NCBI GenBank assembly: GCA_028719205.1
Contig: JAQUKH010000030.1
Location: 1 to 30,940, forward strand
DNA: 30,940 nucleotides
Reading direction: 5' to 3'
Source: a bacterium
GTDB taxonomy: Bacteria; JACRDZ01; JAQUKH01
The position numbers were made by a program, and so were the translations under genes. Position 1 is the first letter of the stretch. Each line of letters begins with the position of its first letter. Of this stretch, positions 8,622-30,940 are shown one piece after another. The notes beneath the pieces are model-generated. The model ran no database searches, was not told the origin of the DNA, and saw only the letters and a program-made list of their open reading frames with translations.

Positions 8622-8691
8622 TATAAAACTATTCTAACATTGATATGTATGAAGTCAATATAAAATTTTGGGATACAAATATAGTACAAAT

Positions 8692-8723
8692 AAAAAGGGG
8701 AGGCAGGTCGCCTCCCCTTTTTT
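8692..8723 (-). terminator. rho-independent terminator (bidirectional: A5-ggggaggc-aggtc-gcctcccc-T6)
   Basis: Perfect 8-bp GC stem with a 5-nt loop and U-runs on both strands. It begins 11 nt after the stop of the 8738..9940 lipoprotein gene. Confidence 0.8.
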
Positions 8724-8737
8724 ACGATGGAATTAAA

Positions 8738-9940: not shown

Positions 9941-10046
9941 TTTCTCCTTATTTAATTTAATCGATCCCCCAATTGCAGAAATTCAGAGTATTTGATCCCC
10001 TCCTTTCTTTAATAATTTATTGAAATAATTAAATTAATGCCCGTTA

Positions 10047-10075
10047 AATATAGCAGATATTCTCACTTTTATCAA
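10047..10075 (-). promoter_or_regulatory. candidate sigma70-type promoter for the 8738..9940 lipoprotein gene
   Basis: Minus strand reads TTGATA (plus 10070-10075), a 17-nt spacer, then TATATT (plus 10047-10052). It lies about 100 nt upstream of the ATG at 9940. Confidence 0.3.
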
Positions 10076-10104
10076 AATATTCATATTTTGTCAATCAAAA
10101 ATTT

Positions 10105-13100: not shown

Positions 13101-13410
13101 TATAATTGATAATTGTATATTTTAATTGCGGGATCTGATTCTCTATCAGAAAAGCTGTTTTCTCCGCGTTATATTTTTTGAAAACAGGGATCTGTAGAAA
13201 AACAAATATAAGTATGAAAAACAAAAAGGATCCGAATCTAAGGAGAGAAAGGAAACTGTAATTAGCATTGAACAAATTAATTATTGGCGTGATCGCAATA
13301 ACAAAAAACAGCGAGACGGTGAGGAATAAGATCATACCCTTGATGAATTCAATTCCCTTCAGCCTCAAAGAAAAATTATAAAGTTTTTGTTCCACAGTTT
13401 CCTTATTCAT
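10105..13410 (-). CDS. 1101-aa membrane-anchored giant coiled-coil protein (Lys/Glu-rich)
   Basis: Three N-terminal hydrophobic helices (ILFLTVSLFFVIAITPIINLF, FLFFILIFVFLQIPVF, IFAAAAGLLLLLIIISP). Then a beta-rich region of about 350 aa. Then more than 500 aa of heptad-like K/E/L/Q-rich sequence (EKQKSLMETNFNQKEFEEKIDRTLNLLKRTLAEQKLEALINEV...) with a short GGGSGS hinge. Codon usage is consistent across the whole frame. Confidence 0.65.
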   Translation of the reverse strand: MNKETVEQKLYNFSLRLKGIEFIKGMILFLTVSLFFVIAITPIINLFNANYSFLSLLRFGSFLFFILIFVFLQIPVFKKYNAEKTAFLIENQIPQLKYTIINYIQLKKYFNNNTYGYSLNLISAYLENTEQLIAKYNFKNAVSAKPLKNDLRIFAAAAGLLLLLIIISPDMFAGTSSFFSNEFQNVSPSIPLKISPGNAKIFPGNDIEITAFSLKTSLNDVKIFYWTNGNEIKTQDLNRITNTKHQTLLSQITQDTKYYVTHGDMKSPEYTIQIIEKPEIRDLKVDLIFPEYTKLPPKTVNDNWIKAITGTRAKINIDCNKELKSASLKFPSGKKISMNIRKNKASGELTVKKDDNYYIELFDKDGYTNESPQYKINAVLDNPPDVKIIEPGKDITIDERMIVPLKISVLDDYGIDTVELKAEILSRNETASILLTQKPGSPQDKSLVFDYIWNLAGLGFLPGDTIIYHIEAKDNDNISGPNIGKSDTYQIRFPSLFEIYKDTEDSQTSENLKLQNVLKEQKDLKEKTEKFINSMSQGEEFDWAKEKELESIHKGEEKVKENLENILKNMKTTTDRLSKSTFIKEDTLEKIAEIQKLINEVLTAEMKELMEKINKALQQTNLSEKQKSLMETNFNQKEFEEKIDRTLNLLKRTLAEQKLEALINEVDKLANRQEKNIFPDDKAVSEEKSIKKETNDVKNDLEKLSKDLKEMDKKTSESLKEASNEMEKNELEKKMDELTKELESAVKKGGKKIDEKISSELKGLSKKLSKIQEDFKEKSMQEILSAIEKAIDYGLIISSSGNEINEMTRKNLSESRSGVSEEKRQELAGKENNLKQGVNLFEKEYKELSKKFIFINPHLADNIRKAQDNLSQSIEALKNGQTPEALSFGKEGMGKVNSITLYLIKLHEDLSDAPPGGGSGSFMEELKKLSERQENLNELTKKLDRLMKKNGGLNPQEENIFQQMAFEQSLIKQALEELEKQMQSLSEKSGSFGGTLSDMEEVEKGLKNKEADEKVQQRQRKILTRLLDAQKSIRQREAGKEWKSTTGQDFGINEAPKDLPDSFKDIKKKILSEIENMQEDKIPLEYRELVEGYFRRLSEEK

Positions 13411-13543
13411 AACGATAAATTATTATACCATAAAAATATTATTTTAATATCATAGGCCTTTTTTATTATATGGAATGTTGCGGGGGAAAGGGGTGAAAAG
13501 TAGTGGAGTGTTTCCGATTATGCTGTTTTGTGCATAAAAACAC

Positions 13544-13612: not shown

Positions 13613-13867
13613 ATGGATTATAAAATATCTGCGAATGAACTAAAGACAAAAGGCGTATCGGCTATAAAAGAAGCTACTGCTAATTATCCGGAGGCAGTTA
13701 TAACGGTAAGGGGTAAGAGCCGTTATGTTGTTATTCCAATCGAATCATATAATCATTTGAGGGAATGTGAACTGGAAGCCGCTATTATTGAATCCAAGAA
13801 AGATATAAAAAATGGTAAATATGTCCAGGAAAGTGTTGAAGATCACATTAAAAGACTAGTGCGCTGA
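13613..13867 (+). CDS. Phd/YefM-family type II antitoxin
   Basis: 84 aa. ...ISANELKTKGVSAIKEATANYPEAVITVRGKSRYVVIPIESYNHL matches the Phd/YefM core (ITkrGkpvaVvvsveeYe). Confidence 0.7.
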   Translation: MDYKISANELKTKGVSAIKEATANYPEAVITVRGKSRYVVIPIESYNHLRECELEAAIIESKKDIKNGKYVQESVEDHIKRLVR

Positions 13868-13913
13868 TAAATTAATTTTGATGCGATAGAATGCCCAGAT
13901 TTGAGACAATTTC

Positions 13914-14086
13914 AACGAACGACGACGCAGGCGTATCCTCTGCGATACGTCAAGGAGGAGTGAGGCAGAAATTGGCCAAAGATGGGTATTCCCGAAGGGC
14001 AGAGGTTCTTTTGCCCCGCTTCTGCGTTGCTCGTCGCTAACATACCGCAGAGGGTATGCTATGCTCCTCGTGCCTTGAATCAGGCC
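13914..14086. repeat. GC-rich, highly structured about 170-bp insertion separating antitoxin and toxin genes
   Basis: Abrupt GC-rich island in AT-rich DNA. It contains two similar local hairpins: cgtatc-ctctgc-gatacg (13933-13950) and catacc-gcagag-ggtatg (14041-14058). There is long-range complementarity between cgacgacgcag (13920-13930) and ctgcgt-tgc-tcgtcg (14021-14035), plus ccc-gaa-ggg and ggccaaag...cttttgcc pairs. The 5' end tttcAACGAAcg resembles the TTTTAACGAA end of the attC-like family at 25-30 kb. Confidence 0.5.
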
Positions 14087-14133
14087 AAAATAATCTCTGC
14101 TATCACATCAAAATAAATTTAACAGAGCACAAC

Positions 14134-14412
14134 ATGGCTAAAATAATATATACCGAAAGTTATATTAAACGGGCAAAGAAATTTGTTAAGAAACATCCTG
14201 AGATTATTAATCAATACGCTAAAACATTAAAATTGCTTGAAATTAATCCGTTTCATCCGTCCCTCAGGCTTCATAAATTAAAAGGCAGGCTTTCCAATCT
14301 ACATTCCGTATCAATAAATATCTCATACCGCATATCGATTGATTTTATAATTGAAAATGATACAATTATACCAATTGATATCGGTTCCCATGATGAAGTA
14401 TATCAAGATTAA
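14134..14412 (+). CDS. RelE/StbE-family type II toxin (mRNA interferase)
   Basis: Start is placed at the internal ATG at 14134 (MAKIIYTESYIKRAKKFVKKHPEI...). ...HKLKGRLSNLHSVSINISYRISIDFIIENDTIIPIDIGSHDEVY matches the RelE/ParE core (L.G.l.g..s.ri..dyRiiy.i.d..i.ii.igHR.d.Y). The ORF-track start at 14056 would add 26 residues read from the GC-rich insert. Confidence 0.7.
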   Translation: MAKIIYTESYIKRAKKFVKKHPEIINQYAKTLKLLEINPFHPSLRLHKLKGRLSNLHSVSINISYRISIDFIIENDTIIPIDIGSHDEVYQD

Positions 14413-14442
14413 ATTATTGCTACTTGAATATTAGGAAGGTAT

Positions 14443-14718
14443 ATGAGAGTTAGAAAAAACGAATTTAGGCGCGCGGAACCGCACATAGAATTAACGACAG
14501 GCGAGGTTATTCAAATGCTTCGTGAATTGAAAGAATGGACTCAGGAAGAATTGGCTAAACGCTCTGGTATTAACTCTACAAACATTAGTTTACTGGAAAA
14601 TGGCAGGGTAGATATTGGTAAAAAGCGGGCGGAACAATTGGCAAAGGCCTTCAATATCCATCCGGCAACTATCATGTTTCCCGAGTATGAGTCTTTGGAA
14701 ATAAAAAAAGCGGCGTAA
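14443..14718 (+). CDS. XRE-family helix-turn-helix transcriptional regulator (HigA-like position)
   Basis: 91 aa. LRELKEWTQEELAKRSGINSTNISLLENGRVDIGKKRAEQLAKAFNI is a Cro/C1-type HTH. AGGAAGG ribosome binding site. It lies 30 nt downstream of the RelE-type toxin, the same order as in higBA. Confidence 0.7.
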   Translation: MRVRKNEFRRAEPHIELTTGEVIQMLRELKEWTQEELAKRSGINSTNISLLENGRVDIGKKRAEQLAKAFNIHPATIMFPEYESLEIKKAA

Positions 14719-14729
14719 TAAAACTATAT

Positions 14730-15551
14730 TTATTTTTGTTTAAGTTTTCGGTTTTTCTGTGCCTTTTTTGCCTCGTTCCAAATTTTATCCAGCCCTTCAA
14801 GCGTATAATGCGAGAAATCTTTTCCGTCCCTTGCTATTTTTTCTTCGATGAATGTGAAGCGATTGATAAATTTACCGATGGTTTTGCTTAGGACCGTCTC
14901 AGGGTCTTTTTCAAGAAATCTCGCGATATTAACCAGTACGAAAAAAAGATCGCCGAGTTCCTCTTCCATGCCCTCGGAATCCTTTTTCTTGTACGCGCTT
15001 TTAAATTCAGCGAATTCCTCATCCAGTTTTGCGAATATATCCTCCACATGGTTCCAGTCAAAACCGACTCGTGCCGCTCTATCCTGCACGCGTTGAGCCC
15101 GCATTATTGCCGGCATGCTTTTAGGTATCCCGTCCAAAATAGATTTATTTTCAGATTTTTTATCGCCTTTTTCCTCTTTTTTTATCTTTTCCCAGTTGCT
15201 GAGAACGTCTTTTACTCCCTTTACCTTTGTGTTCTCAAAAACATGCGGGTGACGGCGGATCATCTTTTCACGGACATTTTTCAGAACATCTTCTATATCA
15301 AAAGATTTATTTTCGGAGGCTATCTGACAGTGGAAAATGACCTGGAATAAAAAATCGCCCAATTCTTCTTTTAATTTATCCGTATTATTTTCATCTATCG
15401 CTTCAATGACTTCGTAAGTCTCTTCTATTAACGAGGGTTTGAGCGAAAAATGGGTTTGTTTCAGATCCCAAGGGCACCCGTCTTTCGAACGCAGTTTTTC
15501 CATAACCTCAACAAGCCTGATAAATTCATTTTTAATATTTTCTTTTTTCAT
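14730..15551 (-). CDS. mazG: nucleoside triphosphate pyrophosphohydrolase MazG (tandem MazG domains)
   Basis: 273 aa. N-domain LRSKDGCPWDLKQTHFSLKPSLIEETYEVIEAI...ELGDFLFQVIFH and C-domain EFAEFKSAY...EELGDLFFVLVNIAR are both EExxE/D MazG motifs. Confidence 0.85.
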   Translation of the reverse strand: MKKENIKNEFIRLVEVMEKLRSKDGCPWDLKQTHFSLKPSLIEETYEVIEAIDENNTDKLKEELGDFLFQVIFHCQIASENKSFDIEDVLKNVREKMIRRHPHVFENTKVKGVKDVLSNWEKIKKEEKGDKKSENKSILDGIPKSMPAIMRAQRVQDRAARVGFDWNHVEDIFAKLDEEFAEFKSAYKKKDSEGMEEELGDLFFVLVNIARFLEKDPETVLSKTIGKFINRFTFIEEKIARDGKDFSHYTLEGLDKIWNEAKKAQKNRKLKQK

Positions 15552-16846
15552 AACAAATTAACCGCGAGCGAGGATAAATAGCTTCTTTCGCTTTTTTCAA
15601 GCGTAATGTGGCCGAATATTTCTTCGCCTTTAAAACGCTCGGCTACGTAGGTCAGGCCGTTGCTGTTTGAGTCGAGGTATGGGTTATCGATCTGATACGG
15701 GTCTCCCGTAAGGATAACCTTGGTGTTCTCTCCCGCGCGGCTTATAATGGTTTTAACCTCATGCGGGGTTAAGTTTTGGGCCTCGTCAACAATGAAATAC
15801 TGGTTCGGCAGGGTCCGGCCGCGGATATAAGTTACAGCCTCAAGTTCGATTCTTTCGGATTTAGAGATAGACTGGTAGGTTTCTTCCGTGTTTTTATTGC
15901 AGAACATCAGGTATTCCAGATTGTCGAAGATAGGCTGCATCCAATGTGAAAGTTTGGCGTCTTTGTCGCCGGGAAGAAAACCGATATCTTTTCCAAGCGG
16001 GACGATCGGACGGGATATCAATATTTTATTATATCTGTTCTCATTAAATGTTTTATGCAGGCCGGCGGCCATTGCCAGAAGCGTTTTTCCTGTACCCGCT
16101 GTGCCGACCAGAGTGACAAGTTTTATATCTTCGCAAAGCAAAAGCTCCATCGCGAAATGCTGCTGCATATTAAGGGGTTTTATTCCCCACGTGTTTGTTT
16201 TCTGATGAAAAAGCGGGACTATTTTATTAAGTTTTTTTAAATATTTAGTGAGAGCTGTTTTGTCAGGATTTATCTCGCTTTTTAGAAGGACAAATTGATT
16301 ATTATTAAGATCGGTGTTTTTCAGGACAAGTTCTTTATTTAAATAAAAATTATCAAGTTTTTCCTTGGATACCAGAATTTCCTTCCAGCCGGAATAAAGT
16401 TCTTCGATATTAACTTTTTGTTTTTCGTAATCCCGCGCGTCTATTCCTAACGCGTCCGCCTTGATACGAGCGTTTATGTCTTTGGTTACAAAAAATACGT
16501 TTTCGCCTTCTTTCTTTAATTTTAAAGCAGTCATTAAGATCTTATTATCAGCCGCCGCCAGATTCATACCGGAAGGGAGGTCAAATTCATAGTTTAATTC
16601 TATTCTTAACCTGCCTCCGTTGCTTAAGGGCACACCCTCGCTTAATTTCGCGCCGTCGGTTCGTAATCCGTCCAAAAATCTCGTTACAATCCTCGCGCTT
16701 CTGCCGCGTTCATCAGTAGAACTTTTAAACCTGTCCAATTCTTCAATTACAGTGATAGGGAGAACGACTTCATTATCTCCGAAAGACGTTAGTGAGTCGG
16801 GGTTGTGTATCAGGACATTGGTATCTATCACGAATGTTTTTTTCAA
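15548..16846 (-). CDS. PIN-domain / PhoH-like ATPase (PhoH2, YlaK-type)
   Basis: 432 aa. N-terminal PIN fold (FVIDTNVLIHNPD...). The C-terminal PhoH core has Walker A VGTAGTGKTLLAMAAG and the motif TGDPYQID. Its stop overlaps the mazG start by 4 nt (15548-15551). Confidence 0.85.
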   Translation of the reverse strand: MKKTFVIDTNVLIHNPDSLTSFGDNEVVLPITVIEELDRFKSSTDERGRSARIVTRFLDGLRTDGAKLSEGVPLSNGGRLRIELNYEFDLPSGMNLAAADNKILMTALKLKKEGENVFFVTKDINARIKADALGIDARDYEKQKVNIEELYSGWKEILVSKEKLDNFYLNKELVLKNTDLNNNQFVLLKSEINPDKTALTKYLKKLNKIVPLFHQKTNTWGIKPLNMQQHFAMELLLCEDIKLVTLVGTAGTGKTLLAMAAGLHKTFNENRYNKILISRPIVPLGKDIGFLPGDKDAKLSHWMQPIFDNLEYLMFCNKNTEETYQSISKSERIELEAVTYIRGRTLPNQYFIVDEAQNLTPHEVKTIISRAGENTKVILTGDPYQIDNPYLDSNSNGLTYVAERFKGEEIFGHITLEKSERSYLSSLAVNLL

Positions 16847-25040: not shown

Positions 25041-25097
25041 ATTATTTTTTACTACAGCCGCACTGTACTCGGCGCCGGTTACAACGTTTTGTTAATT
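25041..25097 (-). repeat. degenerate/relic attC-like site (R'' AATTAAC overlapping the stop codon; the L arm is degenerate and no R' end is present)
   Basis: The minus strand reads attaacaaaacgttgtaaccggcgccgagtacagtgcggctg. This aligns with the R''-proximal half of the 28.4-28.6 kb site (AACAAg...CCGaCGCCGAGTACgGcGCGGCTG). The outer stem is broken (cagccg vs ccggtt) and no GTTRRRY end precedes the next start codon. Confidence 0.45.
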
Positions 25098-25522
25098 TAT
25101 TTTATGACAACACATTCCTTTGGTTCGAGATTTTTTGCCATTGACCAAACAGTGGCCGCCATTTCTTTGACCCGAAATACGGCAATGCACTCTTGCCCAT
25201 ATTGAGCGACTATCGGCTTGAGGAAAGGCCTTTGTGAAATAATTTCCTCTCTTAACTTACTATCGTTTTCAGGTACGGCAATTCCGCTGACGCGGACTTG
25301 TACCAAATTCTGCGGATCGCCATTATGAAAACATAACTCAATATTAGGATTTGTCCGGAGCTGCTTATACAGGTCTCTCATCACGCCCGTGTGAAAAATA
25401 ATGCCTTTCTCATCAGCCCTATACATCCACATCCCGCGAACATGGGGTTTGTTATTAACGCACGTTGCCAACGCGCAAGACATATTTTTGTTAATGAACT
25501 CCAAGATTTCTTTCTGTGTCAT
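25097..25522 (-). CDS. pyridoxamine 5'-phosphate oxidase-like FMN-binding split-barrel protein (cassette ORF)
   Basis: 141 aa. ...SCALATCVNNKPHVRGMWMYRADEKGIIFHTGVMRDLYKQLRTNPNIELCFHNGD matches the PNPOx-family core. Its AGGAG ribosome binding site begins 6 nt after the attC R' GTTAGAA. Confidence 0.65.
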   Translation of the reverse strand: MTQKEILEFINKNMSCALATCVNNKPHVRGMWMYRADEKGIIFHTGVMRDLYKQLRTNPNIELCFHNGDPQNLVQVRVSGIAVPENDSKLREEIISQRPFLKPIVAQYGQECIAVFRVKEMAATVWSMAKNLEPKECVVIK

Positions 25523-25538
25523 ATTGTTCTCCTTTAAG

Positions 25539-25596
25539 TTCTAACGCCAAAGCTCACTGGCGGCGTACTCGCCGTCCAGTGAAGCGCCAGTTAGGC
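25539..25596 (-). repeat. integron attC-like recombination site (58 bp)
   Basis: The minus strand reads R'' GCCTAAC (plus 25590-25596), 11 nt after the brnA stop, and ends with R' GTTAGAA (plus 25539-25545). The centre is cactgg-cggcg-tact-cgccg-T-ccagtg with a single bulged T on the plus (bottom) strand. Confidence 0.7.
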
Positions 25597-25607
25597 TATT
25601 TTATTTA

Positions 25608-25823
25608 TTAAGCCGCTTTCCATTGCAAAGAAAGCCTGCGACTTGAAGCGGCACAATCACGCAAATAGAGATTGATCAGGGTTTGATATGGTATTTCTGC
25701 TTCTTCCGAAAGTTTTTTGAAATACTTAATTGTGTCCTCATCAAGCCGGATTGTAACCTGTTTTTTTAGGCGGCTAGCATATGGATTTTTTTTGGCTTTT
25801 GAAAAATCGTATTCTTTTCTCAT
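25608..25823 (-). CDS. brnA: BrnA-family antitoxin (RHH/CopG-like)
   Basis: 71 aa. KKQVTIRLDEDTIKYFKKLSEEAEIPYQTLINLYLRDCA matches BrnA. The last about 12 residues (SSRRLSLQWKAA) are read from the GC-rich attC-like element. Confidence 0.75.
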   Translation of the reverse strand: MRKEYDFSKAKKNPYASRLKKQVTIRLDEDTIKYFKKLSEEAEIPYQTLINLYLRDCAASSRRLSLQWKAA

Positions 25824-25826
25824 TTT

Positions 25827-26111
25827 TTACCTCCAATATTGTTTCTGTTCTGAACGGGTTGCTTTACGAGCAGATATAATTCTTATTACTTCATCATTCT
25901 TCTTATAACAGTGACAAACAACTAAAATACGAAGGTTAGAACTCAACCCAAGAAGTATAAATCTGTCCTCTTCATCCGAATGATCCGGGTCATGGAGAAG
26001 CAAGGCATTTTCATCAACGAATACTGTTTGGCCTTCCTCAAAGGATATACCATGTTTCTTTATGTTTGAAGTGTTTTTGTCCTTATCCCATTCAAATGAT
26101 ATGTTTGCCAT
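25827..26111 (-). CDS. brnT: BrnT-family toxin (ribonuclease)
   Basis: 94 aa. FEWDKDKNTSNIKKHGISFEEGQTVFVDENALLLHDPDHSDEEDRFILLG...LRILVVCHCYKKNDEVIRIISARKATRSEQKQY matches BrnT (FEWD..K...N..KHGv.FeEa..vF.D.......D..HS..E.R...iG). Confidence 0.8.
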   Translation of the reverse strand: MANISFEWDKDKNTSNIKKHGISFEEGQTVFVDENALLLHDPDHSDEEDRFILLGLSSNLRILVVCHCYKKNDEVIRIISARKATRSEQKQYWR

Positions 26112-26117
26112 ACTTAC

Positions 26118-26146
26118 ATTGTAACTACATTATAATGTTTTGTCAA
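26118..26146 (-). promoter_or_regulatory. cassette-internal promoter TTGACA-N17-TACAAT driving brnTA, 6 nt upstream of ATG (leaderless-type)
   Basis: Minus strand: TTGACA (plus 26141-26146), 17 nt, TACAAT (plus 26118-26123), then gtaagt and the ATG at 26111. There is no Shine-Dalgarno. The predicted transcription start coincides with the start codon. Confidence 0.5.
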
Positions 26147-26165
26147 TTTTATTTATAATTTATCT

Positions 26166-26225
26166 GTCTAACGCTAAAAAATCAGGCGTGGCTATAGGCC
26201 ATCGCCTGCATTGCCCTTGTTAAAA
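26166..26225 (-). repeat. integron attC-like recombination site (60 bp)
   Basis: The minus strand reads R'' TTTTAAC (plus 26219-26225), 11 nt after the DUF2442 stop, and R' GTTAGAC (plus 26166-26172). The centre is caggcg-tggc-tatag-gcca-T-cgcctg with a bulged T. Confidence 0.7.
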
Positions 26226-26236
26226 TCTTCTATTTA

Positions 26237-26479
26237 TTATTTAATAGTTTGTCCTACTTCGTAGAGGAAATCAGGTGAGAAATCAGCATTATTTGGCCAA
26301 ACTACAGTATCTATATCTTTATTGAGAGTTACGTTTTTAAAATATGAGATATCCTTTAGAGGCTCAAATATTTTTCCGTCAAGATATGATTTTAAATCAA
26401 CTATTTTATATTCATTATTTTCAAATTTTACTTTTAATTTATGTCCGTCAACATATTTTACATCAGTTATCCAATGCAT
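26237..26479 (-). CDS. DUF2442-family small protein (partner of DUF4160; TA-like pair)
   Basis: 80 aa. ITDVKYVDGHKLKVKFENNEYKIVDLKSYLDGKIFEPLKDISYFKNVTLNKDIDTVVWPNNADFSPDFLY matches the DUF2442 pattern (v.f.dG....vDL.p.L.G..F.pL.d...F..v......gtv.WPNGaD..Pe.L). Confidence 0.7.
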   Translation of the reverse strand: MHWITDVKYVDGHKLKVKFENNEYKIVDLKSYLDGKIFEPLKDISYFKNVTLNKDIDTVVWPNNADFSPDFLYEVGQTIK

Positions 26480-26490
26480 AAAATAACCTC

Positions 26491-26751
26491 CTATACTAAA
26501 GGTTCAATCTTTTTAAGTTCGTCTTTCCTTTCAACCAATTCCCAATCTTCCAGTAATTCTTCACGATGCAGAAAAGCCCATTCTAAAACAAGTGAAATTA
26601 TTCTTTTTGGTAAGTCACCTTCAATAAGCTTTAATTCATTTATAGAAAAAGATGCTCTGAATTCACCATACTTAGCATGAAAATGCGGTGGTGTATGTTC
26701 ATTATAATACATCGAAATTATTATTCCTAAAAATCTGGAGATTTCTGGCAT
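26491..26751 (-). CDS. DUF4160-family small protein (partner of DUF2442; TA-like pair)
   Basis: 86 aa. MPEISRFLGIIISMYYNEHTPPHFHAKYGEFRASFSINEL...LPKRIISLVLEWAFLHREELLEDWE matches DUF4160 (MP.is.F.Gi.I.my..dH.PPHfHa.Y). Confidence 0.7.
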   Translation of the reverse strand: MPEISRFLGIIISMYYNEHTPPHFHAKYGEFRASFSINELKLIEGDLPKRIISLVLEWAFLHREELLEDWELVERKDELKKIEPLV

Positions 26752-26847
26752 TAATCTTCCTTTCTGCTGAAATTATATCATATTTTATATATTTGTTATT
26801 CAGATTTTATAAAAGTTCAAATAGTTGGGATTGTTCCTAAATTTTAT

Positions 26848-26906
26848 TTTTAACGAATAAATCAGCGGTGCCGCTATGCGGTATCCGCTGCATGATGTTG
26901 TTAAAA
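26848..26906 (-). repeat. integron attC-like recombination site (59 bp)
   Basis: R'' TTTTAAC (plus 26900-26906) and R' GTTAAAA (plus 26848-26854). The centre is cagcgg-tgccg-ctatg-cggta-T-ccgctg with one inner-stem mismatch and a bulged T. The site starts 90 nt after the stop of the upstream ORF. Confidence 0.65.
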
Positions 26907-26995
26907 TCTTATTTTTTATATCTTCCCTTTTTGTTTATCGATGAAATAAAAGAGGGGTTAGGAAAGTTTAAATAGTTAAGAGCGTCCCCTATCTC

Positions 26996-27733
26996 TCAAT
27001 TGGATATAGATAAAGTTTTTGTTCTTGTTGGAGTAACAGAATCATTTTCATAAATTTCAATTGTTTTAGTATATGGACCGTCCCAGAAGGAAATATTCAT
27101 ATCATTATTTTTCGATTCTGATATAAAAACTCCTGTCGCTCCAAACATTCCTCCTATATTATTAGGATCATATTCAATCCAGCCTAAAGGATCCTTCGCC
27201 CAAATATCTTCTGAAGTTAATATAACTACTTTTAACTTAGCTCCCTCAATAAGTTCAGCTCTCAAACTATATGATTTACGAGTTATGATGTTAATTGAGT
27301 TTTCTCCTAAGATATTATTTCCGTAAATGCCTGTTTCAGGATAAGTAATGCCGGAAGTACCTGCTCCTTTAATAGTAAAAGTATAAAGGTTTTCGTCTAA
27401 ATCGTTATTTTTTATAAGTATGGAGGCAGTTTGTTCTTCTTTATTTTTAGGATTATAATTGATACTAAAAGTTTGCCTTGCGCCTAATGGAATAATCATT
27501 GAAGAAGGTTGAGTCAAAGTGAATACATTGCTATCACTTGTTAAAGTTATGTTGTCGCTTATTATTAAGTCATTATTGCCATTATTCTCTATCGTAAAAG
27601 TTATTGTCGTACTTTGATTAATTTTAATACTTCCGAAGTCATAAATTCCGCCTGAAGATATATCAGTATTCCCTACCTTCAGGATTAGTTAGTTTTGCAC
27701 CAGTGTTTTCATCTACATTCGTATTTGGGTACA
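26996..27733 (-). pseudogene. disrupted cassette ORF encoding an Ig-like/ASH-like beta-sandwich domain (in-frame TAA at 27689-27691)
   Basis: The ORF track gives only a TTG-initiated 173-aa ORF (26996..27517). The same frame reads on upstream without ATG or GTG as ...LILKVGNTDISSGGIYDFGSIKINQSTTITFTIENNGNNDLIISDNITLTSDSNVFTLTQPSS..., so the domain begins before the called start. An in-frame TAA follows MYPNTNVDENTGAK (ATG at 27733). The gene looks nonsense-interrupted. Confidence 0.4.
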
Positions 27734-27832
27734 TTGATCCTGAGGTTATTAGAAAAATTGAAAATCAATACCACCCCCCACCCGTGTTTAGTTAATTTTG
27801 TCATATGAATATTCCCTTTTTTATTTTTCTAT

Positions 27833-27889
27833 TTTTAACATTTGAGCTCAGGCGTGCCGTTAGGCGTCGCTTGAAGCGATTCGTTAAAA
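27833..27889 (-). repeat. integron attC-like recombination site (57 bp, slightly degenerate)
   Basis: R'' TTTTAAC (plus 27883-27889) and R' GTTAAAA (plus 27833-27839). The centre is caggcg-tgcc-gtta-ggcg-T-cgcttg with two stem mismatches. The bulged T is retained. Confidence 0.6.
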
Positions 27890-27956
27890 TCTTAATCTGT
27901 AAATCTTTTTTTGGTGTACTAATTCAATTCTGTTATCGAGCTGCTCCTTAAGTATG

Positions 27957-28385
27957 TTAGTTTCTTCCCATTTCAATTAGAAGAAATATATTCCCTTCTT
28001 TATCTTCTACATATCTCCAAAATGGCGATTTGAAATGAATTGAGGCCGCAACTACTTCTTGTTGCTTATATCCTTCAGCACTTGCTCGAACAATAAATTG
28101 TCTTTCTCCTATGTCTGGACATTTACTTAAGAAGAATTTCCATGGGATTCTGAATTTACCTTTTTTATCAATTTTAAAAGTATATGTTTTTGTATTTTCC
28201 TTAACAAGAAATCCTTTTTCATGGATTTCTAAAACAATTTTAGCATCAATTATAGGTTCGTTATTATCTTTACTTACAATTTGCCCATAAATTGTTTTGG
28301 TAAAATTTTGTTCACAACCAGATATAGAGAAAACAATTATAAAAAATATTAATAATTGTAAATAGATACTAATTTTATTATTCAT
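27957..28385 (-). CDS. cassette-encoded lipoprotein, hypothetical
   Basis: Start is placed at ATG 28385 (MNNKISIYLQLLIFFIIVFSISGC, a lipobox), 11 nt after attC R' GTTAAAT. The ORF-track start at 28460 would read 25 extra residues out of the attC-like element. Confidence 0.55.
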   Translation of the reverse strand: MNNKISIYLQLLIFFIIVFSISGCEQNFTKTIYGQIVSKDNNEPIIDAKIVLEIHEKGFLVKENTKTYTFKIDKKGKFRIPWKFFLSKCPDIGERQFIVRASAEGYKQQEVVAASIHFKSPFWRYVEDKEGNIFLLIEMGRN

Positions 28386-28396
28386 AGATATTTTCA

Positions 28397-28622
28397 ATTT
28401 AACAGCGAGTTGAGCGAAATTGAACTGGACTGGCATGCTTGCATGCCAAGACCAGGGCAATTTGCGCTCGAACGATTTGTTCGACCGCGCGAATCAGCGC
28501 GCGGTCGGACTAATCGGGCGAGTGCGTACGCGCAACTCGCTGTTCGGGCGCGCGCAGCGCGGCCGAACGCCCGAAACTCAGCCGCGCCGTACTCGGCGTC
28601 GGCTGGAGTGCACTTGTTAAAA
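28397..28622 (-). repeat. atypical long (226 bp) attC-like site with about 165-bp GC-rich structured insert
   Basis: Canonical ends: R'' TTTTAAC (plus 28616-28622) and R' GTTAAAT (plus 28397-28403). The R''-proximal arm is cagccg-cgccg-tact-cggcg-T-cggctg, a perfect stem with a bulged T. Between the arms lies very GC-rich sequence with perfect hairpins: gaccgcgcg-aatcag-cgcgcggtc, ggcatgc-tt-gcatgcc, and cgggcg...cgcccg. Confidence 0.6.
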
Positions 28623-28659
28623 TCTTAAATTGTAAAAGTATCTCACAAATTTAAAGAGC

Positions 28660-28878
28660 CTAGATATTTTTTAGTATTTCTTCAGCAGAATAAAAATGAG
28701 CTTTTTTATTTTTTTCTTTTATTTCAAATGTTTCAATCTCTTTCCTGTCTACCAGATTTTCGTACATCTCTATCATTGATTTCTTTAACAGTTTTGAACG
28801 GTCTTCGTCGTAATAAGTTTCTAATTTTTTTAAAACTTTTTCTTCATATGGATTAAATCTTACAGATATTACAGCCAT
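28660..28878 (-). CDS. ribbon-helix-helix antitoxin (DUF6290-like)
   Basis: 72 aa. MAVISVRFNPYEEKVLKKLETYYDEDRSKLLKKSMIEMYENLVD matches the DUF6290/RHH pattern (M.tisiRlneeEeklik.yA...g.s.Sefir.a.le.iEd). It overlaps the 3' end of the RelE-like gene by 10 nt. Confidence 0.6.
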   Translation of the reverse strand: MAVISVRFNPYEEKVLKKLETYYDEDRSKLLKKSMIEMYENLVDRKEIETFEIKEKNKKAHFYSAEEILKNI

Positions 28879-29138
28879 TGTTTATAAACCTCCTCTCGTT
28901 TTGCTATACTGATAATGAAGTAATCCTCATTTTCAATGTAGAATATCGCTCTGAACTTGTTTTTTCTCATTCTATAATATGTCCGTGCTTCATTTGATTT
29001 TAATCGCTTTATATCAAATAAGTTCAGATCTTTTGTTGTTTCCAAGGCAATAAATGCGTGATGAAATAATTGAAAAACCTCTTTAGGTATTTTTCCTTTC
29101 TTTAAATTCCGTAATACTTCATCTTCGTATTTAATCAT
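28869..29138 (-). CDS. RelE/ParE-family type II toxin
   Basis: 89 aa. ...IKRLKSNEARTYYRMRKNKFRAIFYIENEDYFIISIAKREEVYK matches the RelE core (l.g...g.yelRvg.yRiiY.i.d....il.i.hRkdvY). The toxin precedes its antitoxin, a higBA-like order. Confidence 0.7.
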   Translation of the reverse strand: MIKYEDEVLRNLKKGKIPKEVFQLFHHAFIALETTKDLNLFDIKRLKSNEARTYYRMRKNKFRAIFYIENEDYFIISIAKREEVYKQWL

Positions 29139-29144
29139 GTATAC

Positions 29145-29173
29145 ATTGTAATACTTATATTTATTTTTGTCAA
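29145..29173 (-). promoter_or_regulatory. cassette-internal promoter TTGACA-N17-TACAAT, 6 nt upstream of the RelE-like ATG (leaderless-type)
   Basis: Minus strand: TTGACA (plus 29168-29173), 17 nt, TACAAT (plus 29145-29150), then gtatac and the ATG at 29138. Same architecture as the brnTA cassette promoter. Confidence 0.5.
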
Positions 29174-29219
29174 GTTGTTTTTCGATAGGTGGGGAAGAAT
29201 TTAGTTATTTTATTCTTAT

Positions 29220-29279
29220 TTTTAACGTTGAAAACTCAGGCGCCGCCATAGGCGGTCGCCTGAAGTGCCCTTGTTAAAA
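29220..29279 (-). repeat. integron attC-like recombination site (60 bp)
   Basis: R'' TTTTAAC (plus 29273-29279), 2 nt after the ParE-like stop, and R' GTTAAAA (plus 29220-29226). The centre is caggcg-ccgcc-ata-ggcgg-T-cgcctg, perfect stems with a bulged T. Confidence 0.7.
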
Positions 29280-29281
29280 TT

Positions 29282-29575
29282 TTAATTTATTCTATCAGCC
29301 CAATAGTTAGGTTTTCTGTGTAAATGTGCAAATGCAAGAACAACAATTATGTCATTTTGTATTGAATAAATTATTTTATAGGGAAATTTATGAACTAAAT
29401 ATTTTCTGGTTTCTTTACGCTCAGGTGGCCATGCAAGAGGGAATTGCTGGATATGAAGAAGTGATTGCTCAATTTTATTTTCAAATTTGGTGCCTAAACC
29501 GGTTTGTTCTATTTCATAAAACTCTTTAGCCTCATTAAATTCAAATTGGGCAATTTTAAGAATTCTTATTTCCAT
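29282..29575 (-). CDS. ParE/RelE-family type II toxin
   Basis: 97 aa. ...QQFPLAWPPERKETRKYLVHKFPYKIIYSIQNDIIVVLAFAHLHRKPNYWADR matches the ParE C-terminal core (fPy.iiY.i.d..i.il.v.H..r.p.yw). Confidence 0.7.
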   Translation of the reverse strand: MEIRILKIAQFEFNEAKEFYEIEQTGLGTKFENKIEQSLLHIQQFPLAWPPERKETRKYLVHKFPYKIIYSIQNDIIVVLAFAHLHRKPNYWADRIN

Positions 29576-29577
29576 AG

Positions 29578-29787
29578 TTATTTTTTGGTAAACATTTCCT
29601 CAAGAGAAACAGTTTTTAATTTCCCAGCTTTATAGGCTTTCAGTCTTTTTTCTGCTTCATCTGCCCAAATTTTTTCAATTTCAGGATCTGGGACATCAAG
29701 ACTTTTCATTAACGCTTCAATAACTATGGATTTTTCCGCTGGTTTAAGATTTAATGCTTTTGATATTATTTGTTTTGTTGGTGACAT
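29578..29787 (-). CDS. putative addiction-module antitoxin (TIGR02574-like component)
   Basis: 69 aa. LKPAEKSIVIEALMKSLDVPDPEIEKIWADEAEKRLKAYKAGKLKTVSLEEM matches the TIGR02574 pattern (L...eR..L...Ll.SL......i...W..Ea.rR......G). It lies 2 nt upstream of the ParE-like gene. AAGAGG ribosome binding site. A possible TATAAT sits at plus 29823-29828 (minus strand). Confidence 0.65.
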   Translation of the reverse strand: MSPTKQIISKALNLKPAEKSIVIEALMKSLDVPDPEIEKIWADEAEKRLKAYKAGKLKTVSLEEMFTKK

Positions 29788-29868
29788 AATTTATACCTCT
29801 TAAATATATTTATTTCTTCTGAATTATAGCACAAAATATCTTAATATATTAATTTTTCTAATTTTCAT

Positions 29869-29927
29869 TTTTAACGCCGGAAATCACTGGCGGGCTACTG
29901 CCCGTCCAGTGCATTGAAATGTTGGGA
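29869..29927 (-). repeat. integron attC-like recombination site (59 bp)
   Basis: R'' TCCCAAC (plus 29921-29927), 8 nt after the ParE stop, and R' GTTAAAA (plus 29869-29875). The centre is cactgg-cgggc-tact-gcccg-T-ccagtg. It has the same outer stem as the 25.5 kb site but a compensatorily changed inner stem (cgggc/gcccg vs cggcg/cgccg). Confidence 0.7.
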
Positions 29928-29935
29928 ATCTTAAT

Positions 29936-30232
29936 TTATTTTATATAATTTTTTAATTCCATTGCGCCATGGAAGACACCAAGAATATCTATTCTCTGCG
30001 GATCATTAATTAAGTAAGCAATTCTATAATGTGTATAGTATATTACTCTCACATTTTCCTTGTTTATATCTTGGTATATCCCGCCAATTTCTGGGAATAG
30101 TTTTAATATTTGCGCTTTTTCACGTATTTTTGCTACGACATTTTTTGCTGCTCTGGGATTGTCTAGTGTGATGTAATCATGAATGTTTTTTAAGCAGGAT
30201 TTTGCTTCATCGGTCCAGTTCAATTTTACCAT
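29936..30232 (-). CDS. ParE/RelE-family type II toxin
   Basis: 98 aa. MVKLNWTDEAKSCLKNIHDYITLDNPRAAKNVVAKIREKAQILKLFPEIGG...VRVIYYTHYRIAYLINDPQRIDILGVFHGAMEL matches the ParE pattern (W...A..dl..i..yi...np.aA......i......L..fP..G...........Y.i.Y.i......v.il.v.H). Confidence 0.7.
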   Translation of the reverse strand: MVKLNWTDEAKSCLKNIHDYITLDNPRAAKNVVAKIREKAQILKLFPEIGGIYQDINKENVRVIYYTHYRIAYLINDPQRIDILGVFHGAMELKNYIK

Positions 30233-30405
30233 TTTTCAATTTCTCTACCCAAATCTTCATCGGATGTAATTTTATTTAATTGAGAATCCCTGATTCCTCT
30301 TTCAACCATACGTTTAAACAGTAATTCCTTTATAAGTTCATCGTATGAAACATCATCAGGCAGGTCATCTATTATTTTTTTAGCATTATCTTTTATTGAT
30401 AACAT
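30226..30405 (-). CDS. small antitoxin-position protein (59 aa) overlapping the ParE start; not in the ORF track
   Basis: Manual translation of the minus strand gives MLSIKDNAKKIIDDLPDDVSYDELIKELLFKRMVERGIRDSQLNKITSDEDLGREIEKW*. An AGGAG ribosome binding site lies 5 nt upstream of ATG 30405. The stop TAA overlaps the ParE ATG (AAATGGTAA), which is classic toxin-antitoxin coupling. Confidence 0.55.
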   Translation of the reverse strand: MLSIKDNAKKIIDDLPDDVSYDELIKELLFKRMVERGIRDSQLNKITSDEDLGREIEKW

Positions 30406-30461
30406 ATTTAGCTCCTTTCCTATGCTTATATTTTACCATAGTAAGGCAATTATTTTTGGAT

Positions 30462-30839
30462 TTATTTTTTATTCAAGGGAAAAATTTTATCGAAAATATT
30501 ATTATATGACAAATAAATGTTAAGGTGTTTTTTAAATATTTGCTTAGACTTATCAATTTGTTCACTGAACCAAATAATTTCTTTATCTATTTCTTCGTGT
30601 GTTGCAATCTTATCTTTATTGGGACCTTCTAGGATTTGTCTTTGTTTGCGAAGATTTAAACCATGTTTAAAAATTTCATTAATATAATCTGATATCTCTT
30701 GGCTTTCGAATAAAAAATCTGCCTCCGAAACAGAGTTTCGAAACCCGATAAGGTCGTTTAAGTCAGGCCGGTCATTTACAAAAGAAATACTTAATATCTT
30801 CTTAATTTCTTCGTAGATTTTAAGTCGTCGTTCATACAC
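30462..30839 (-). CDS. hypothetical protein (GTG start; first visible cassette ORF)
   Basis: 125 aa. The frame is closed upstream by TGA, so GTG at 30839 is the first usable start. No recognisable family. No attC-like site separates it from the downstream antitoxin/ParE pair. Confidence 0.4.
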   Translation of the reverse strand: MYERRLKIYEEIKKILSISFVNDRPDLNDLIGFRNSVSEADFLFESQEISDYINEIFKHGLNLRKQRQILEGPNKDKIATHEEIDKEIIWFSEQIDKSKQIFKKHLNIYLSYNNIFDKIFPLNKK

Positions 30840-30940
30840 TGCAGCTTTTGTTCAGAACCTTCGCCGTATGCTTCGGCATTTATTATCACCTGATGTTTTT
30901 TATCAGCCACCGCTATTCCATTATAGCCTTGTATTACTCC

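What the first reader, a model, noticed from the sequence alone, without database searches (positions are those of the whole stretch)
25539..29927. attC-like repeats conserve structure, not sequence: covarying stems plus an invariant bulged T
The central hairpins read on the plus strand as outer stem, inner stem, loop, inner-stem complement, T, outer-stem complement. The six copies are: cactgg-cggcg-tact-cgccg-T-ccagtg (25.55 kb); caggcg-tggc-tatag-gcca-T-cgcctg (26.19 kb); cagcgg-tgccg-ctatg-cggta-T-ccgctg (26.87 kb); cagccg-cgccg-tact-cggcg-T-cggctg (28.58 kb); caggcg-ccgcc-ata-ggcgg-T-cgcctg (29.24 kb); cactgg-cgggc-tact-gcccg-T-ccagtg (29.89 kb). Outer and inner stems differ between copies but always keep complementarity, i.e. 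compensatory changes. All copies keep a single unpaired T on the plus strand, which is the bottom strand relative to the cassette ORFs. Extrahelical bases on the folded bottom strand are what integron integrases read in attC sites. The conserved flanks aaatcttaa / TTTTAAC suggest one homogeneous attC family, typical of sedentary chromosomal integrons.
Basis: seen in the sequence. Interest (0 to 1): 0.8.

Follow-up and report, generated by a model that had tools for sequence, protein, structure and literature searches.

The report
Integron attC sites in cassette array

Summary
The window holds seven intact hairpin sites, not six. All seven have the same polarity on the + strand, at 25539-29927. 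A decayed eighth copy lies at 25045-25097.

This is the published layout of a folded attC bottom strand, including the 6-bp spacing between the two extrahelical bases.

- **Covariation:** it is strong. The central helix is 100% paired, and 9 of its 13 pairs show compensatory changes.
- **Cross-detection:** a covariance model built only from these seven sites finds a verified class 1 integron attC, full length, on its bottom strand (42.5 bits).
- **Crossover signature:** R-box halves pair better with the next site's half than with their own, as expected for crossover at AA|C.
- **Cassette content:** all array ORFs lie on the opposite strand. Most are toxin-antitoxin pairs.
- **Integrase:** none is present. 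The window is a whole 30.9-kb MAG contig that ends 1 kb past the last site.

Verdict: a new member of a known kind, of low interest. A 165-nt GC-rich palindromic insert at one site is unexplained.

The parts
25045..25097 (+). S0: decayed terminal attC remnant. It keeps CAGCCG, TACT, CGGCG and GTTAATT. The 5' AAC box and the stem complementarity are lost. It marks the distal end of the array, next to housekeeping genes.
   Evidence: Read from the sequence. Model R1 does not find it even at E<=10. Left flank is MoxR-YicC-Gmk.
25539..25596 (+). attC S1, + strand = bottom strand. R' TTCTAAC, R'' GTTAGGC. Extrahelical T25575 and A25582. Inferred crossover 25544|25545.
   Evidence: 71.6 bits on +, 11.2 bits on -.
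26166..26225 (+). attC S2. R' GTCTAAC, R'' GTTAAAA. Extrahelical T26202 and C26209. Inferred crossover 26171|26172.
   Evidence: 75.9 bits on +.
26848..26906 (+). attC S3. R' TTTTAAC, R'' GTTAAAA. Extrahelical T26884 and C26891. One G.T wobble in the inner stem.
   Evidence: 64.8 bits on +.
R' TTTTAAC, R'' GTTAAAA. Extrahelical T27867 and A27874. Two G.T wobbles, which would be C.A mismatches on the other strand.
   Evidence: 65.1 bits on +.
28403..28567 (+). Element X: a 165-nt GC-rich palindromic insert, made of a Y-shaped 138-nt fold plus a 27-nt hairpin. It lies exactly between two AA|C junctions on the R' side of S5. It is possibly an ORF-less cassette. Unexplained.
   Evidence: Fold -87.4 kcal/mol, z = -12.3. 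Junction analysis. No Rfam family. Short relatives in L127.
28562..28622 (+). attC S5. Its R' in the array is GCCGAAC, supplied by element X. R'' GTTAAAA. Extrahelical T28599 and G28606.
   Evidence: 71.3 bits on +; R-box analysis.
29220..29279 (+). attC S6. R' TTTTAAC, R'' GTTAAAA. Extrahelical T29256 and A29263.
   Evidence: 77.5 bits on +.
29869..29927 (+). attC S7. R' TTTTAAC, R'' GTTGGGA. The R box pairs through three T.G wobbles on the + strand only. Extrahelical T29905 and C29912.
   Evidence: 66.0 bits on +.
25097..25522 (-). Cassette ORF: pyridoxamine 5'-phosphate oxidase-like, promoterless. It starts 17 nt from the cassette boundary.
   Evidence: PF01243, E 4e-16.
25608..26111 (-). 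Cassette with the BrnT toxin / BrnA antitoxin pair. It has its own promoter-like site, TTGACA-17-TACAAT, at 26146->26118.
   Evidence: PF04365 E 8e-29 and PF14384 E 3e-10; promoter scan.
26237..26751 (-). Cassette with a DUF4160 / DUF2442 gene pair.
   Evidence: PF13711 E 2e-23 and PF10387 E 4e-15.
26996..27800 (-). Cassette with an Ig-like-domain gene whose 5' part is broken over three reading frames. It is either a pseudogene or the result of assembly errors.
   Evidence: Three-frame translation; weak PF22544 hit.
27957..28385 (-). Cassette ORF: a small putative lipoprotein with weak CarboxypepD_reg similarity.
28660..29138 (-). Cassette with a DUF6290 antitoxin-like gene and an 89-aa partner. 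It has a promoter-like site, TTGACA-17-TACAAT, at 29173->29145.
   Evidence: PF19807 E 4e-11; promoter scan.
29282..29787 (-). Cassette with a ParE-family toxin and an 'addiction module component' antitoxin.
   Evidence: PF05016; PF09720 E 2e-15.
29936..30405 (-). ParE-family toxin plus a small upstream ORF. These lie upstream of S7, and no further attC is found before the contig ends.
   Evidence: PF05016 E 1e-17; no R1 hit above noise at 29931-30940.

Best explanation
Window 25045-29927 is an array of integron gene cassettes, and the repeats are their attC recombination sites.

**Shown here**
- Seven co-oriented 57-61-nt imperfect palindromes separate cassette-sized (630-990 bp) units.
- All ORFs of those units lie on the - strand.
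- The + strand folds into the canonical attC bottom-strand hairpin: R box with invariant AAC/GTT, unpaired spacer, a 3-bp + 6-bp L-box stem carrying two single-base bulges 6 bp apart on the arm opposite the AAC, and a GC-rich terminal stem-loop.
- Stems are maintained by compensatory substitutions.

**Inferred from the established integron mechanism**
- When the + strand is single-stranded, each site folds and two integron-integrase (IntI) monomers bind the R and L boxes.
- The bulged bases tell the enzyme which strand to use, which fixes cassette orientation.
- The strand is cut between A and C of the 5' AAC.
- Exchange with another attC or an attI excises or inserts a cassette.

The integrase is not on this contig. 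It is either beyond the contig end, 1 kb past the last site, or elsewhere in the genome, or it has been lost. As sampled, the element is a cluster of attC sites lacking an integrase (CALIN). It sits in a variable gap between gmk and, in related genomes, priA.
For: 1. **Fold.** All 7 sites fold as DNA on the + strand into R box / spacer / 3 bp / bulge / 6 bp / T bulge / 4-6 bp / loop, with z-scores of -2.1 to -5.3.
2. **Match to the published definition.** Nivina et al. 2016 (PMC5027507) describe R' 5'-RYYYAAC-3' and R'' 5'-GTTRRRY-3', two or three extrahelical bases near L'', the furthest one a conserved T, a 6-bp stem between first and last, a spacer of about 5-6 nt, and a length of 57-141 bp. 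PMC7439510 adds the 6-bp spacing and a GC-rich apical stem.
3. **Strand polarity.** The architecture scan gives 7 hits on +, none on - and none elsewhere, against a shuffle mean of 0.7. Model R1 scores 65-78 bits on + and 11-15 bits on - for the same sites.
4. **Covariation.** The central helix is 100% paired, 9 of 13 pairs carry compensatory changes, and 0 of 500 shuffles reach the observed score. With 15 copies it is 95.9% paired with 11 of 13 pairs compensatory.
5. **Cross-detection.** R1 was trained only on the window. It finds the aadA-type attC next to intI1 in plasmid CP080283.1 full length at 42.5 bits, E 8e-9. The hit is on the strand opposite the cassette genes, with T and G bulges in the same model columns.
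6. **Crossover signature.** The R'' of each site pairs with the R' of the next site at 46 of 49 positions. It pairs with its own array R' at 37 of 49. Random assignment reaches 46 in 135 of 20000 trials. This is expected if cassettes move as units cut at AA|C.
7. **Cassette content and packing.** There are toxin-antitoxin pairs and small ORFs, all on the - strand, with stop codons 3-90 nt from the next attC (3-12 nt for four of the six).
8. **Wobble bias.** G.T wobbles fall on the + strand: 7 in 7 sites. A bias toward the bottom strand is reported for attC sites.
9. **Family members elsewhere.** Sites of the same family occur in other metagenome contigs with different neighbouring genes.
Against: - No tyrosine recombinase, intI pseudogene or recognisable attI is in the 30.9-kb contig. 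Pfam scans covered every ORF of 80 aa or more that is not nested in a larger annotated ORF. tblastn with IntI1 gave a best E of 0.49.
- The first extrahelical base is 'usually G' in known sites. Here it is G in only 1 of 7, and in 4 of 15 in the wider set.
- The outermost R-box position does not fit RYYYAAC/GTTRRRY. The sites have TTTTAAC and GTTAAAA.
- The folded + strand is not more stable than the - strand (mean difference about -0.2 kcal/mol). There is no purine excess on the + strand. Mobile-integron attC sites show both.
- No recombination has been demonstrated.
- IntegronFinder's own attC model was not available to me.
Confidence: 0.92

Rival explanations
1. A relic array. The sites are genuine attC sites by descent, but the lineage no longer has an integron integrase. 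The cassettes are then frozen, and the hairpins survive only through recent common ancestry or a secondary role.
For: - No intI is on the contig.
- S0 is decayed and S4 carries two wobbles.
- One cassette gene looks frameshifted.
- The relative L127 has only degraded attC-like remnants at the same locus, and L126 has none.
- About half of CALINs are in genomes without IntI (PMC4889954).
Against: - Six of seven central helices are perfectly Watson-Crick apart from a single wobble.
- Nine helix positions show compensatory double changes. This implies selection on pairing over the time the sites diverged to about 60% identity.
- The contig ends 1 kb upstream of S7, so an integrase could lie just beyond it.
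Confidence: 0.25
2. The hairpins are intergenic transcription terminators or REP-like stabilising elements that happen to be repeated after each small operon. They are not recombination sites.
For: - Each hairpin lies just downstream of a - strand stop codon.
- On the - strand, several are followed by short T runs. S2 is followed by TTTTTT, and S6 by TTTT one base after the stem.
Against: - The terminator scan flags only S3 among the seven. The total count (5) is no higher than in shuffles (3.8 +/- 2.6).
- A terminator does not need the invariant AAC...GTT boxes 15-20 nt outside the stem.
- It does not need two bulges fixed 6 bp apart on one arm.
- It does not explain R-box halves that match the neighbouring site.
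- The model built from the sites recovers a genuine attC.
Confidence: 0.03
3. The sites are targets or ends of a different mobile element, such as a MITE family or sites for an unrelated tyrosine or serine recombinase. They only mimic attC sites.
For: - No cognate integrase is seen.
- Element X shows that other structured DNA has entered the array.
Against: - The units between sites are whole genes with one site each, not short non-coding elements.
- There are no terminal inverted repeats or target duplications around the sites.
- The position-by-position match to a class 1 attC, including both bulges, is hard to obtain by convergence.
Confidence: 0.02

Closest known systems
Short attC sites of mobile (class 1) integrons, e.g. 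attC of aadA1/aadA7 (60 bp)
   Same: - Similar length (57-61 vs 60 nt).
- Same order of parts on the bottom strand: RYYYAAC-type box, spacer, 3 bp, bulge, 6 bp, bulged T, GC-rich stem, 3-5 nt loop, GTT-type box.
- The two align column by column under model R1 at 42.5 bits.
- The attC sequence I recalled was verified at 100% identity in R100 and in thousands of other plasmids.
   Different: - The first bulged base is G in the class 1 site. Here it is A, C, C, A, G, A, C.
- The spacer on the 5' arm is 6-9 nt here, against 5-6.
- R boxes are A/T-only (TTTTAAC/GTTAAAA).
- There is no purine-rich GAA loop and no bottom-strand stability or purine bias.
- The cassettes carry toxin-antitoxin and unknown genes, not resistance genes.
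- The host is an unclassified uncultivated bacterium.
Vibrio cholerae repeats (VCR) and other attC families of sedentary chromosomal integrons
   Same: - The array is chromosomal.
- Sites within the array resemble each other more than they resemble unrelated attC sites.
- Many cassettes are toxin-antitoxin pairs with their own promoters.
   Different: - VCRs are about 120-130 nt with a large terminal structure and three extrahelical bases. They are nearly identical to each other (my own knowledge).
- These sites are about 60 nt, have two bulges and share only 47-79% identity.
- Only 7-8 sites are visible and no integrase is seen.
- The array is absent or vestigial at this locus in relatives.
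CALIN (cluster of attC sites lacking an integron integrase; Cury et al. 2016, PMC4889954)
   Same: - At least 2 attC sites lie on one strand less than 4 kb apart with no intI nearby.
- The cassettes are unrelated to resistance cassettes.
- Similarity within the element is intermediate (for the definition; for the data).
   Different: The label depends on the sampling. Only 1 kb of sequence exists upstream of the first visible site, so a complete integron cannot be excluded.

Membership tests
integron attC site | Inverted core sites R' (5'-RYYYAAC-3' on the bottom strand) and R'' (5'-GTTRRRY-3') with a conserved AAC / GTT | tested here: met
   AAC and GTT are invariant in all 7 sites. The inner positions fit YYY/RRR in 6 of 7 R' boxes and all 7 R'' boxes; the exception is S5, whose R' half (GCCGAAC) comes from element X. 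The outermost position often deviates (TTTTAAC, GTTAAAA). Definition from PMC5027507.
integron attC site | Imperfect hairpin with an unpaired central spacer between the R and L boxes, and a total length of 57-141 bp | tested here: met
   DNA folds: 6-9 nt unpaired on the 5' arm and 4-6 nt on the 3' arm. Lengths are 57-61 nt.
integron attC site | [quoted passage not shown] | tested here: met
   T bulge in 7 of 7 window sites and 14 of 15 in the extended set. A second bulge lies exactly 6 bp away in all, on the 3' arm of the + strand.
integron attC site | The proximal extrahelical base is usually G | tested here: not met
   It is A, C, C, A, G, A, C in the window. In 15 family copies it is A x5, C x4, G x4, T x2. 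The literature says 'usually' or 'typically', so this is a deviation rather than an exclusion.
integron attC site | Structure is conserved while sequence is not (compensatory changes in the stems) | tested here: met
   central helix 100% and 95.9% paired, with 9 and 11 of 13 pairs carrying double changes. Mean pairwise identity is 60%.
integron attC site | The bottom strand is complementary to the coding strand of the cassette ORFs. Sites are clustered on one strand less than 4 kb apart, one per cassette. | tested here: met
   All array ORFs are on the - strand and all sites have bottom-strand polarity on +. Spacing is 627-985 nt.
integron attC site | Recognised by a covariance model of attC sites | tested here: met
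   IntegronFinder's model is not available here and Rfam has no attC family. I ran the reciprocal test instead: a model built from the 7 sites detects a verified class 1 attC on its bottom strand at 42.5 bits, E 8e-9.
integron attC site | Cassette boundaries at AA|C (G|TT), so that each array site is a chimera of two cassettes' R-box halves | tested here: met
   R''(j) pairs with R'(j+1) at 46 of 49 positions, against 37 of 49 with its own array R'. Random assignment reaches 46 in 135 of 20000 trials.
integron attC site | Recombined as folded single-stranded DNA by an integron integrase | not testable with these tools
   This needs a conjugation or in-vitro assay.
complete integron | An adjacent intI gene (tyrosine recombinase with the IntI-specific insertion), an attI site and a Pc promoter upstream of the first cassette | tested here: inconclusive
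   No tyrosine recombinase or IntI1-like pseudogene is in the window. However, the window is the entire contig and ends 1013 nt upstream of S7.
sedentary chromosomal integron | A long array (tens of cassettes) with highly similar attC sites, conserved at one locus within the lineage | tested here: not met
   Only 7 intact sites and 1 remnant are visible, with 47-79% identity. At the same gmk-priA locus, L126 has no array and L127 has only remnants. The array may continue off the contig.
CALIN | At least 2 attC sites on one strand within 4 kb of each other and no integron integrase in the cluster's neighbourhood | tested here: inconclusive
   This is met for the 25 kb downstream of the array and for the 1 kb available upstream. 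The upstream side is truncated by the contig end. Definition from PMC4889954.
intrinsic terminator | GC-rich hairpin immediately followed by a T/U tract on the transcribed strand | tested here: not met
   Only S3 among the seven is flagged. The count in the region is no higher than in shuffles.

The most novel reading that the evidence does not exclude
The 165-nt GC-rich element X (28403-28567) may be an ORF-less cassette, or an attC-targeting structured element, of a kind not described before.

- It sits exactly between two AA|C junctions.
- Removing it would restore perfect R boxes both for S5 and for the circularised element.
- Its own 'attC' is a 138-nt Y-shaped perfect palindrome with no unpaired spacer and no extrahelical bases.
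- Shortened copies of its ends recur at attC junctions in a related genome.

If real, it would mean that this lineage's integrase accepts a substrate lacking the features thought to set strand choice. Alternatively, a separate small element may parasitise the attC crossover point. The non-G first extrahelical base could reflect the same relaxed recognition.
Probability: 0.2. Interest if true: 0.45.

Novelty: new member of a known kind. Interest (0 to 1): 0.17.

Why it matters
The practical value is annotation.

- It identifies a cassette array, and so probably an integron, in an unclassified uncultivated bacterial lineage.
- It gives exact cassette boundaries.
- It provides a small attC family that can seed searches in related metagenomes.
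- It is a clean natural example of the attC rules: a 6-bp spacing between the two bulged bases, a conserved distal T and a GC-rich apical stem. It shows those rules holding in an AT-rich genome with a proximal bulged base that is not G.

It does not change the current understanding of integrons. Conservation of structure rather than sequence, and the role of extrahelical bases, have been established experimentally since the mid-2000s.

Tried and rejected
1. **Genome-collection scan.** The pattern TTTTAACN{38,55}GTTAAAATYTT returned 120 loci. None contains the hairpin architecture.
2. **Exact-protein look-ups.** Look-ups for three window proteins, meant to extend the contig, found nothing. One search then showed that the window is the whole 30,940-nt contig.
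3. **Rfam.** There was no family at gathering thresholds anywhere in the window. Around element X there were only sub-threshold chance matches.
4. **Search for an integrase.** Pfam on the substantial ORFs and tblastn with IntI1 found no tyrosine recombinase or pseudogene.
5. **Upstream partner of S7.** I looked to the right of S7 for an R' matching its R'' (TCCCAAC). There is no convincing site, so the upstream end of the array or an attI could not be located.
6. **Open frame at the right contig end.** I suspected that the 49-codon frame was a transposase fragment. Neither Pfam nor NCBIfam supports this, so I dropped the idea.
7. **Conserved-cassette idea for X.** I tested whether the X-adjacent ORFs in the window and in L127 are homologous, which would make X part of a conserved cassette. 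They are not.
8. **Bottom-strand stability and purine skew.** Neither is seen here, so they give no support for the strand assignment. That assignment rests on the bulge positions, the G.T wobbles and the ORF orientation.

Full report
**What is in the sequence**

A scan I wrote looked for a 6-bp stem, a 4-6-bp inner stem, a 3-6-nt loop, one bulged base on the 3' arm, and AAC/GTT within 22 nt on either side. It returns seven sites on the + strand, none on the - strand and none elsewhere in the 30.9 kb. Composition-preserving shuffles give a mean of 0.7 hits for both strands together.

A decayed eighth copy lies at 25045-25097, at the edge of the array next to the housekeeping genes moxR, yicC and gmk.

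**Anatomy**

Folded as single-stranded DNA, every site on the + strand gives the same picture:
- a 7-nt box ending in AAC (consensus TTTTAAC);
- 6-9 unpaired bases;
- 3 bp, then 6 bp, then a 4-6-bp G+C-rich stem and a 3-5-nt loop;
- on the way back, an invariant bulged T, the 6 bp, a second bulged base (A, C, C, A, G, A, C), the 3 bp and 4-6 unpaired bases;
- a box starting with GTT (consensus GTTAAAA).

Nivina et al. 2016 (PMC5027507) describe the folded attC bottom strand in these terms:
- R' 5'-RYYYAAC-3' and R'' 5'-GTTRRRY-3';
- an unpaired central spacer of about 5-6 nt;
- extrahelical bases near L'' on the arm opposite the AAC, the first usually G and the furthest a conserved T;
- a 6-bp stem required between them;
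- a variable terminal structure and a total length of 57-141 bp.

Nivina et al. 2020 (PMC7439510) again stress the 6-bp spacing and a GC-rich apical stem. The window sites (57-61 nt) meet all of these except that the first bulged base is rarely G.

**Is the structure selected?**

On the MAFFT alignment of the seven sites, 95% of cells are paired. The figure falls to 27-43% when partners are slid by 1-3 columns. The central 13-pair helix is 100% paired, with compensatory double changes at 9 pairs. No shuffle out of 500 reaches the observed covariation score.

A covariance model built from these seven sites (R1) scores them at 65-78 bits on the + strand. The same sites score only 11-15 bits on the - strand, so the asymmetry is real.

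A specific pattern scan of metagenome contigs found relatives of the family on other contigs with different neighbouring genes. With 15 copies aligned, the central helix is 95.9% paired and 11 of 13 pairs show compensatory changes. The distal bulge is T in 14 copies and C in one.

**Test against a genuine attC**

I recalled the aadA1-type attC from memory. I then verified it at 100% identity in plasmid R100 and in thousands of other plasmids.

In plasmid CP080283.1 this site lies in a class 1 integron next to an annotated intI1. Model R1, trained only on the window, finds it full length at 42.5 bits (E 8e-9). The hit is on the strand opposite the cassette genes. Its T and G bulges fall in the same model columns as the two bulges of the window sites, and its DNA fold has the same layout. 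This is the strongest evidence for membership short of running IntegronFinder's own model, which was not available. Rfam has no attC family.

**Evidence of cassette-wise recombination**

In an array, the six outer bases of each R' box belong to the neighbouring cassette, because the crossover is at AA|C. So the R'' of site j should match the R' of site j+1 better than its own array R'.

It does: 46 of 49 positions against 37 of 49. Random assignment reaches 46 in only 135 of 20000 trials. The informative cases are S1, S2, element X and S5.

The context also fits:
- all array ORFs are on the - strand;
- stop codons lie 3-90 nt from the next site, and 3-12 nt for four of the six;
- the units are 627-985 nt long;
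- most are toxin-antitoxin pairs (BrnT/BrnA, DUF4160/DUF2442, DUF6290 with a partner, and ParE with its antitoxin, once inside the array and once just upstream of S7), some with their own promoter-like sites.

G.T wobbles fall on the + strand, 7 in 7 sites. This agrees with the reported bias toward the bottom strand.

**What is missing**

There is no integron integrase, intI pseudogene or recognisable attI in the window. The window is an entire 30,940-nt contig of an NCBI MAG labelled only 'bacterium'. It ends 1013 nt upstream of the last site, so an integrase just beyond the end cannot be excluded.

As sampled, the element meets the working definition of a CALIN (PMC4889954).

Two related MAGs, with Gmk 77-78% identical, share the moxR-yicC-gmk...priA neighbourhood. 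One has no array there. The other has only degraded attC-like remnants in the same gap. The array therefore occupies a variable spot, and the label 'sedentary chromosomal integron' is not established. Mean pairwise identity among the sites is 60%, well below what I recall for VCR-type families.

**Mechanism**

Shown here: the fold, the polarity, the covariation, the chimeric R boxes and the match to a genuine attC.

Inferred from the established integron pathway:
- the + strand folds when it is single-stranded;
- integrase monomers bind the R and L boxes;
- the two bulged bases, on the arm opposite the AAC, direct use of this strand and so fix cassette orientation;
- cleavage occurs between A and C of the 5' AAC.

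Not shown: that any integrase acts on these sites today.

**Rivals**

- *Terminator or REP-like role.* This is disfavoured. Only one of the seven sites is terminator-like and the count does not exceed shuffles. Such a role would not explain the AAC/GTT boxes, the fixed bulges or the R-box chimerism.
- *Relic array without an integrase.* This remains possible (about 0.25). S0 is decayed, one cassette gene is broken over three frames, and the relatives show remnants only. Against it, compensatory changes at 9 positions argue that pairing was under selection while the sites diverged.

**Unexplained side finding**

A 165-nt, roughly 65% G+C element lies at 28403-28567, between ATTTAA|C and GCCGAA|C on the R' side of S5. 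It folds into a Y-shaped 138-nt palindrome plus a 27-nt hairpin (-87 kcal/mol, z = -12).

Removing it at the two AA|C points would restore a perfect R box for S5 (TTTAAC/GTTAAA). It would also give the circular element a CCGAAC/GTTCGG box. That is how an ORF-less cassette would look. However, the element has no unpaired spacer and no bulges, and the CCGAAC/GTTCGG pairing is also simply a local hairpin.

Shortened versions of its ends occur at attC junctions in the related MAG, next to a non-homologous ORF. No Rfam family matches it. I could not resolve what it is.

**Verdict**

This is the defining and long-known behaviour of integron attC sites, here in a new and unclassified host. It is a new member of a known kind, of low interest (0.17).

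The only leads with some novelty are element X and the non-G proximal bulged base.

Noticed in passing
window 28403-28567: A 165-nt GC-rich, highly structured palindromic element lies exactly between two AA|C junctions beside attC S5. It may be an ORF-less cassette with a non-canonical attC, or an unrelated structured insert. Short relatives occur in L127 at 12685-12725, 13386-13427 and 14055-14085.
   Followed up: partly
window 26996-27800 (- strand): The Ig-like-domain gene of the S4-S3 cassette has its 5' part split over three reading frames. It is either a pseudogene or the result of homopolymer assembly errors.
   Followed up: partly
window 26118-26146 and 29145-29173 (- strand): Near-consensus sigma-70-like promoters (TTGACA-17-TACAAT, 11 of 12 matches) lie inside two toxin-antitoxin cassettes. 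These cassettes therefore probably do not depend on an integron Pc promoter.
   Followed up: no
window 29869-29927: The R box of S7 (TTTTAAC / GTTGGGA) pairs through three T.G wobbles on the + strand. On the - strand these would be three C.A mismatches, so the asymmetry favours folding of the inferred bottom strand.
   Followed up: yes
window 29928-30940: Upstream of S7 there is a ParE-type toxin-antitoxin pair, a 125-aa ORF with no family match, and a 49-codon open frame running off the contig end. No attC, attI or matching R' box was found. My guess that the end fragment is a transposase got no support from Pfam or NCBIfam.
   Followed up: partly
window 481-1251 (- strand): An IstB-like ATPase (the IS21 helper protein family) lies near the left contig end, so the left end of the contig may lie in or near IS-related sequence.
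   Followed up: no
window 13613-14718 and 15548-16846: More toxin-antitoxin-like genes lie outside the array: a Phd/YefM-like gene, a YafQ-like gene with an HTH gene, and a PIN-PhoH fusion. The region at 8163-13410 encodes large proteins (152, 400 and 1101 aa) with no Pfam match.
   Followed up: no
L126 286-3211 (related MAG GCA_040754625.1): A reverse transcriptase-Cas1 fusion gene, with a faint Cas6 hit, and a cas2 gene lie a few kb upstream of the shared moxR-yicC-gmk block in the relative. They are absent from the window.
   Followed up: no
L125 310-390: A member of the same attC family has an 81-nt form. Its R boxes, the 6-bp stem (with one mismatch) and the T bulge are the same, but the terminal stem-loop is much longer. 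The family therefore varies in its terminal structure, as known attC sites do.
   Followed up: partly
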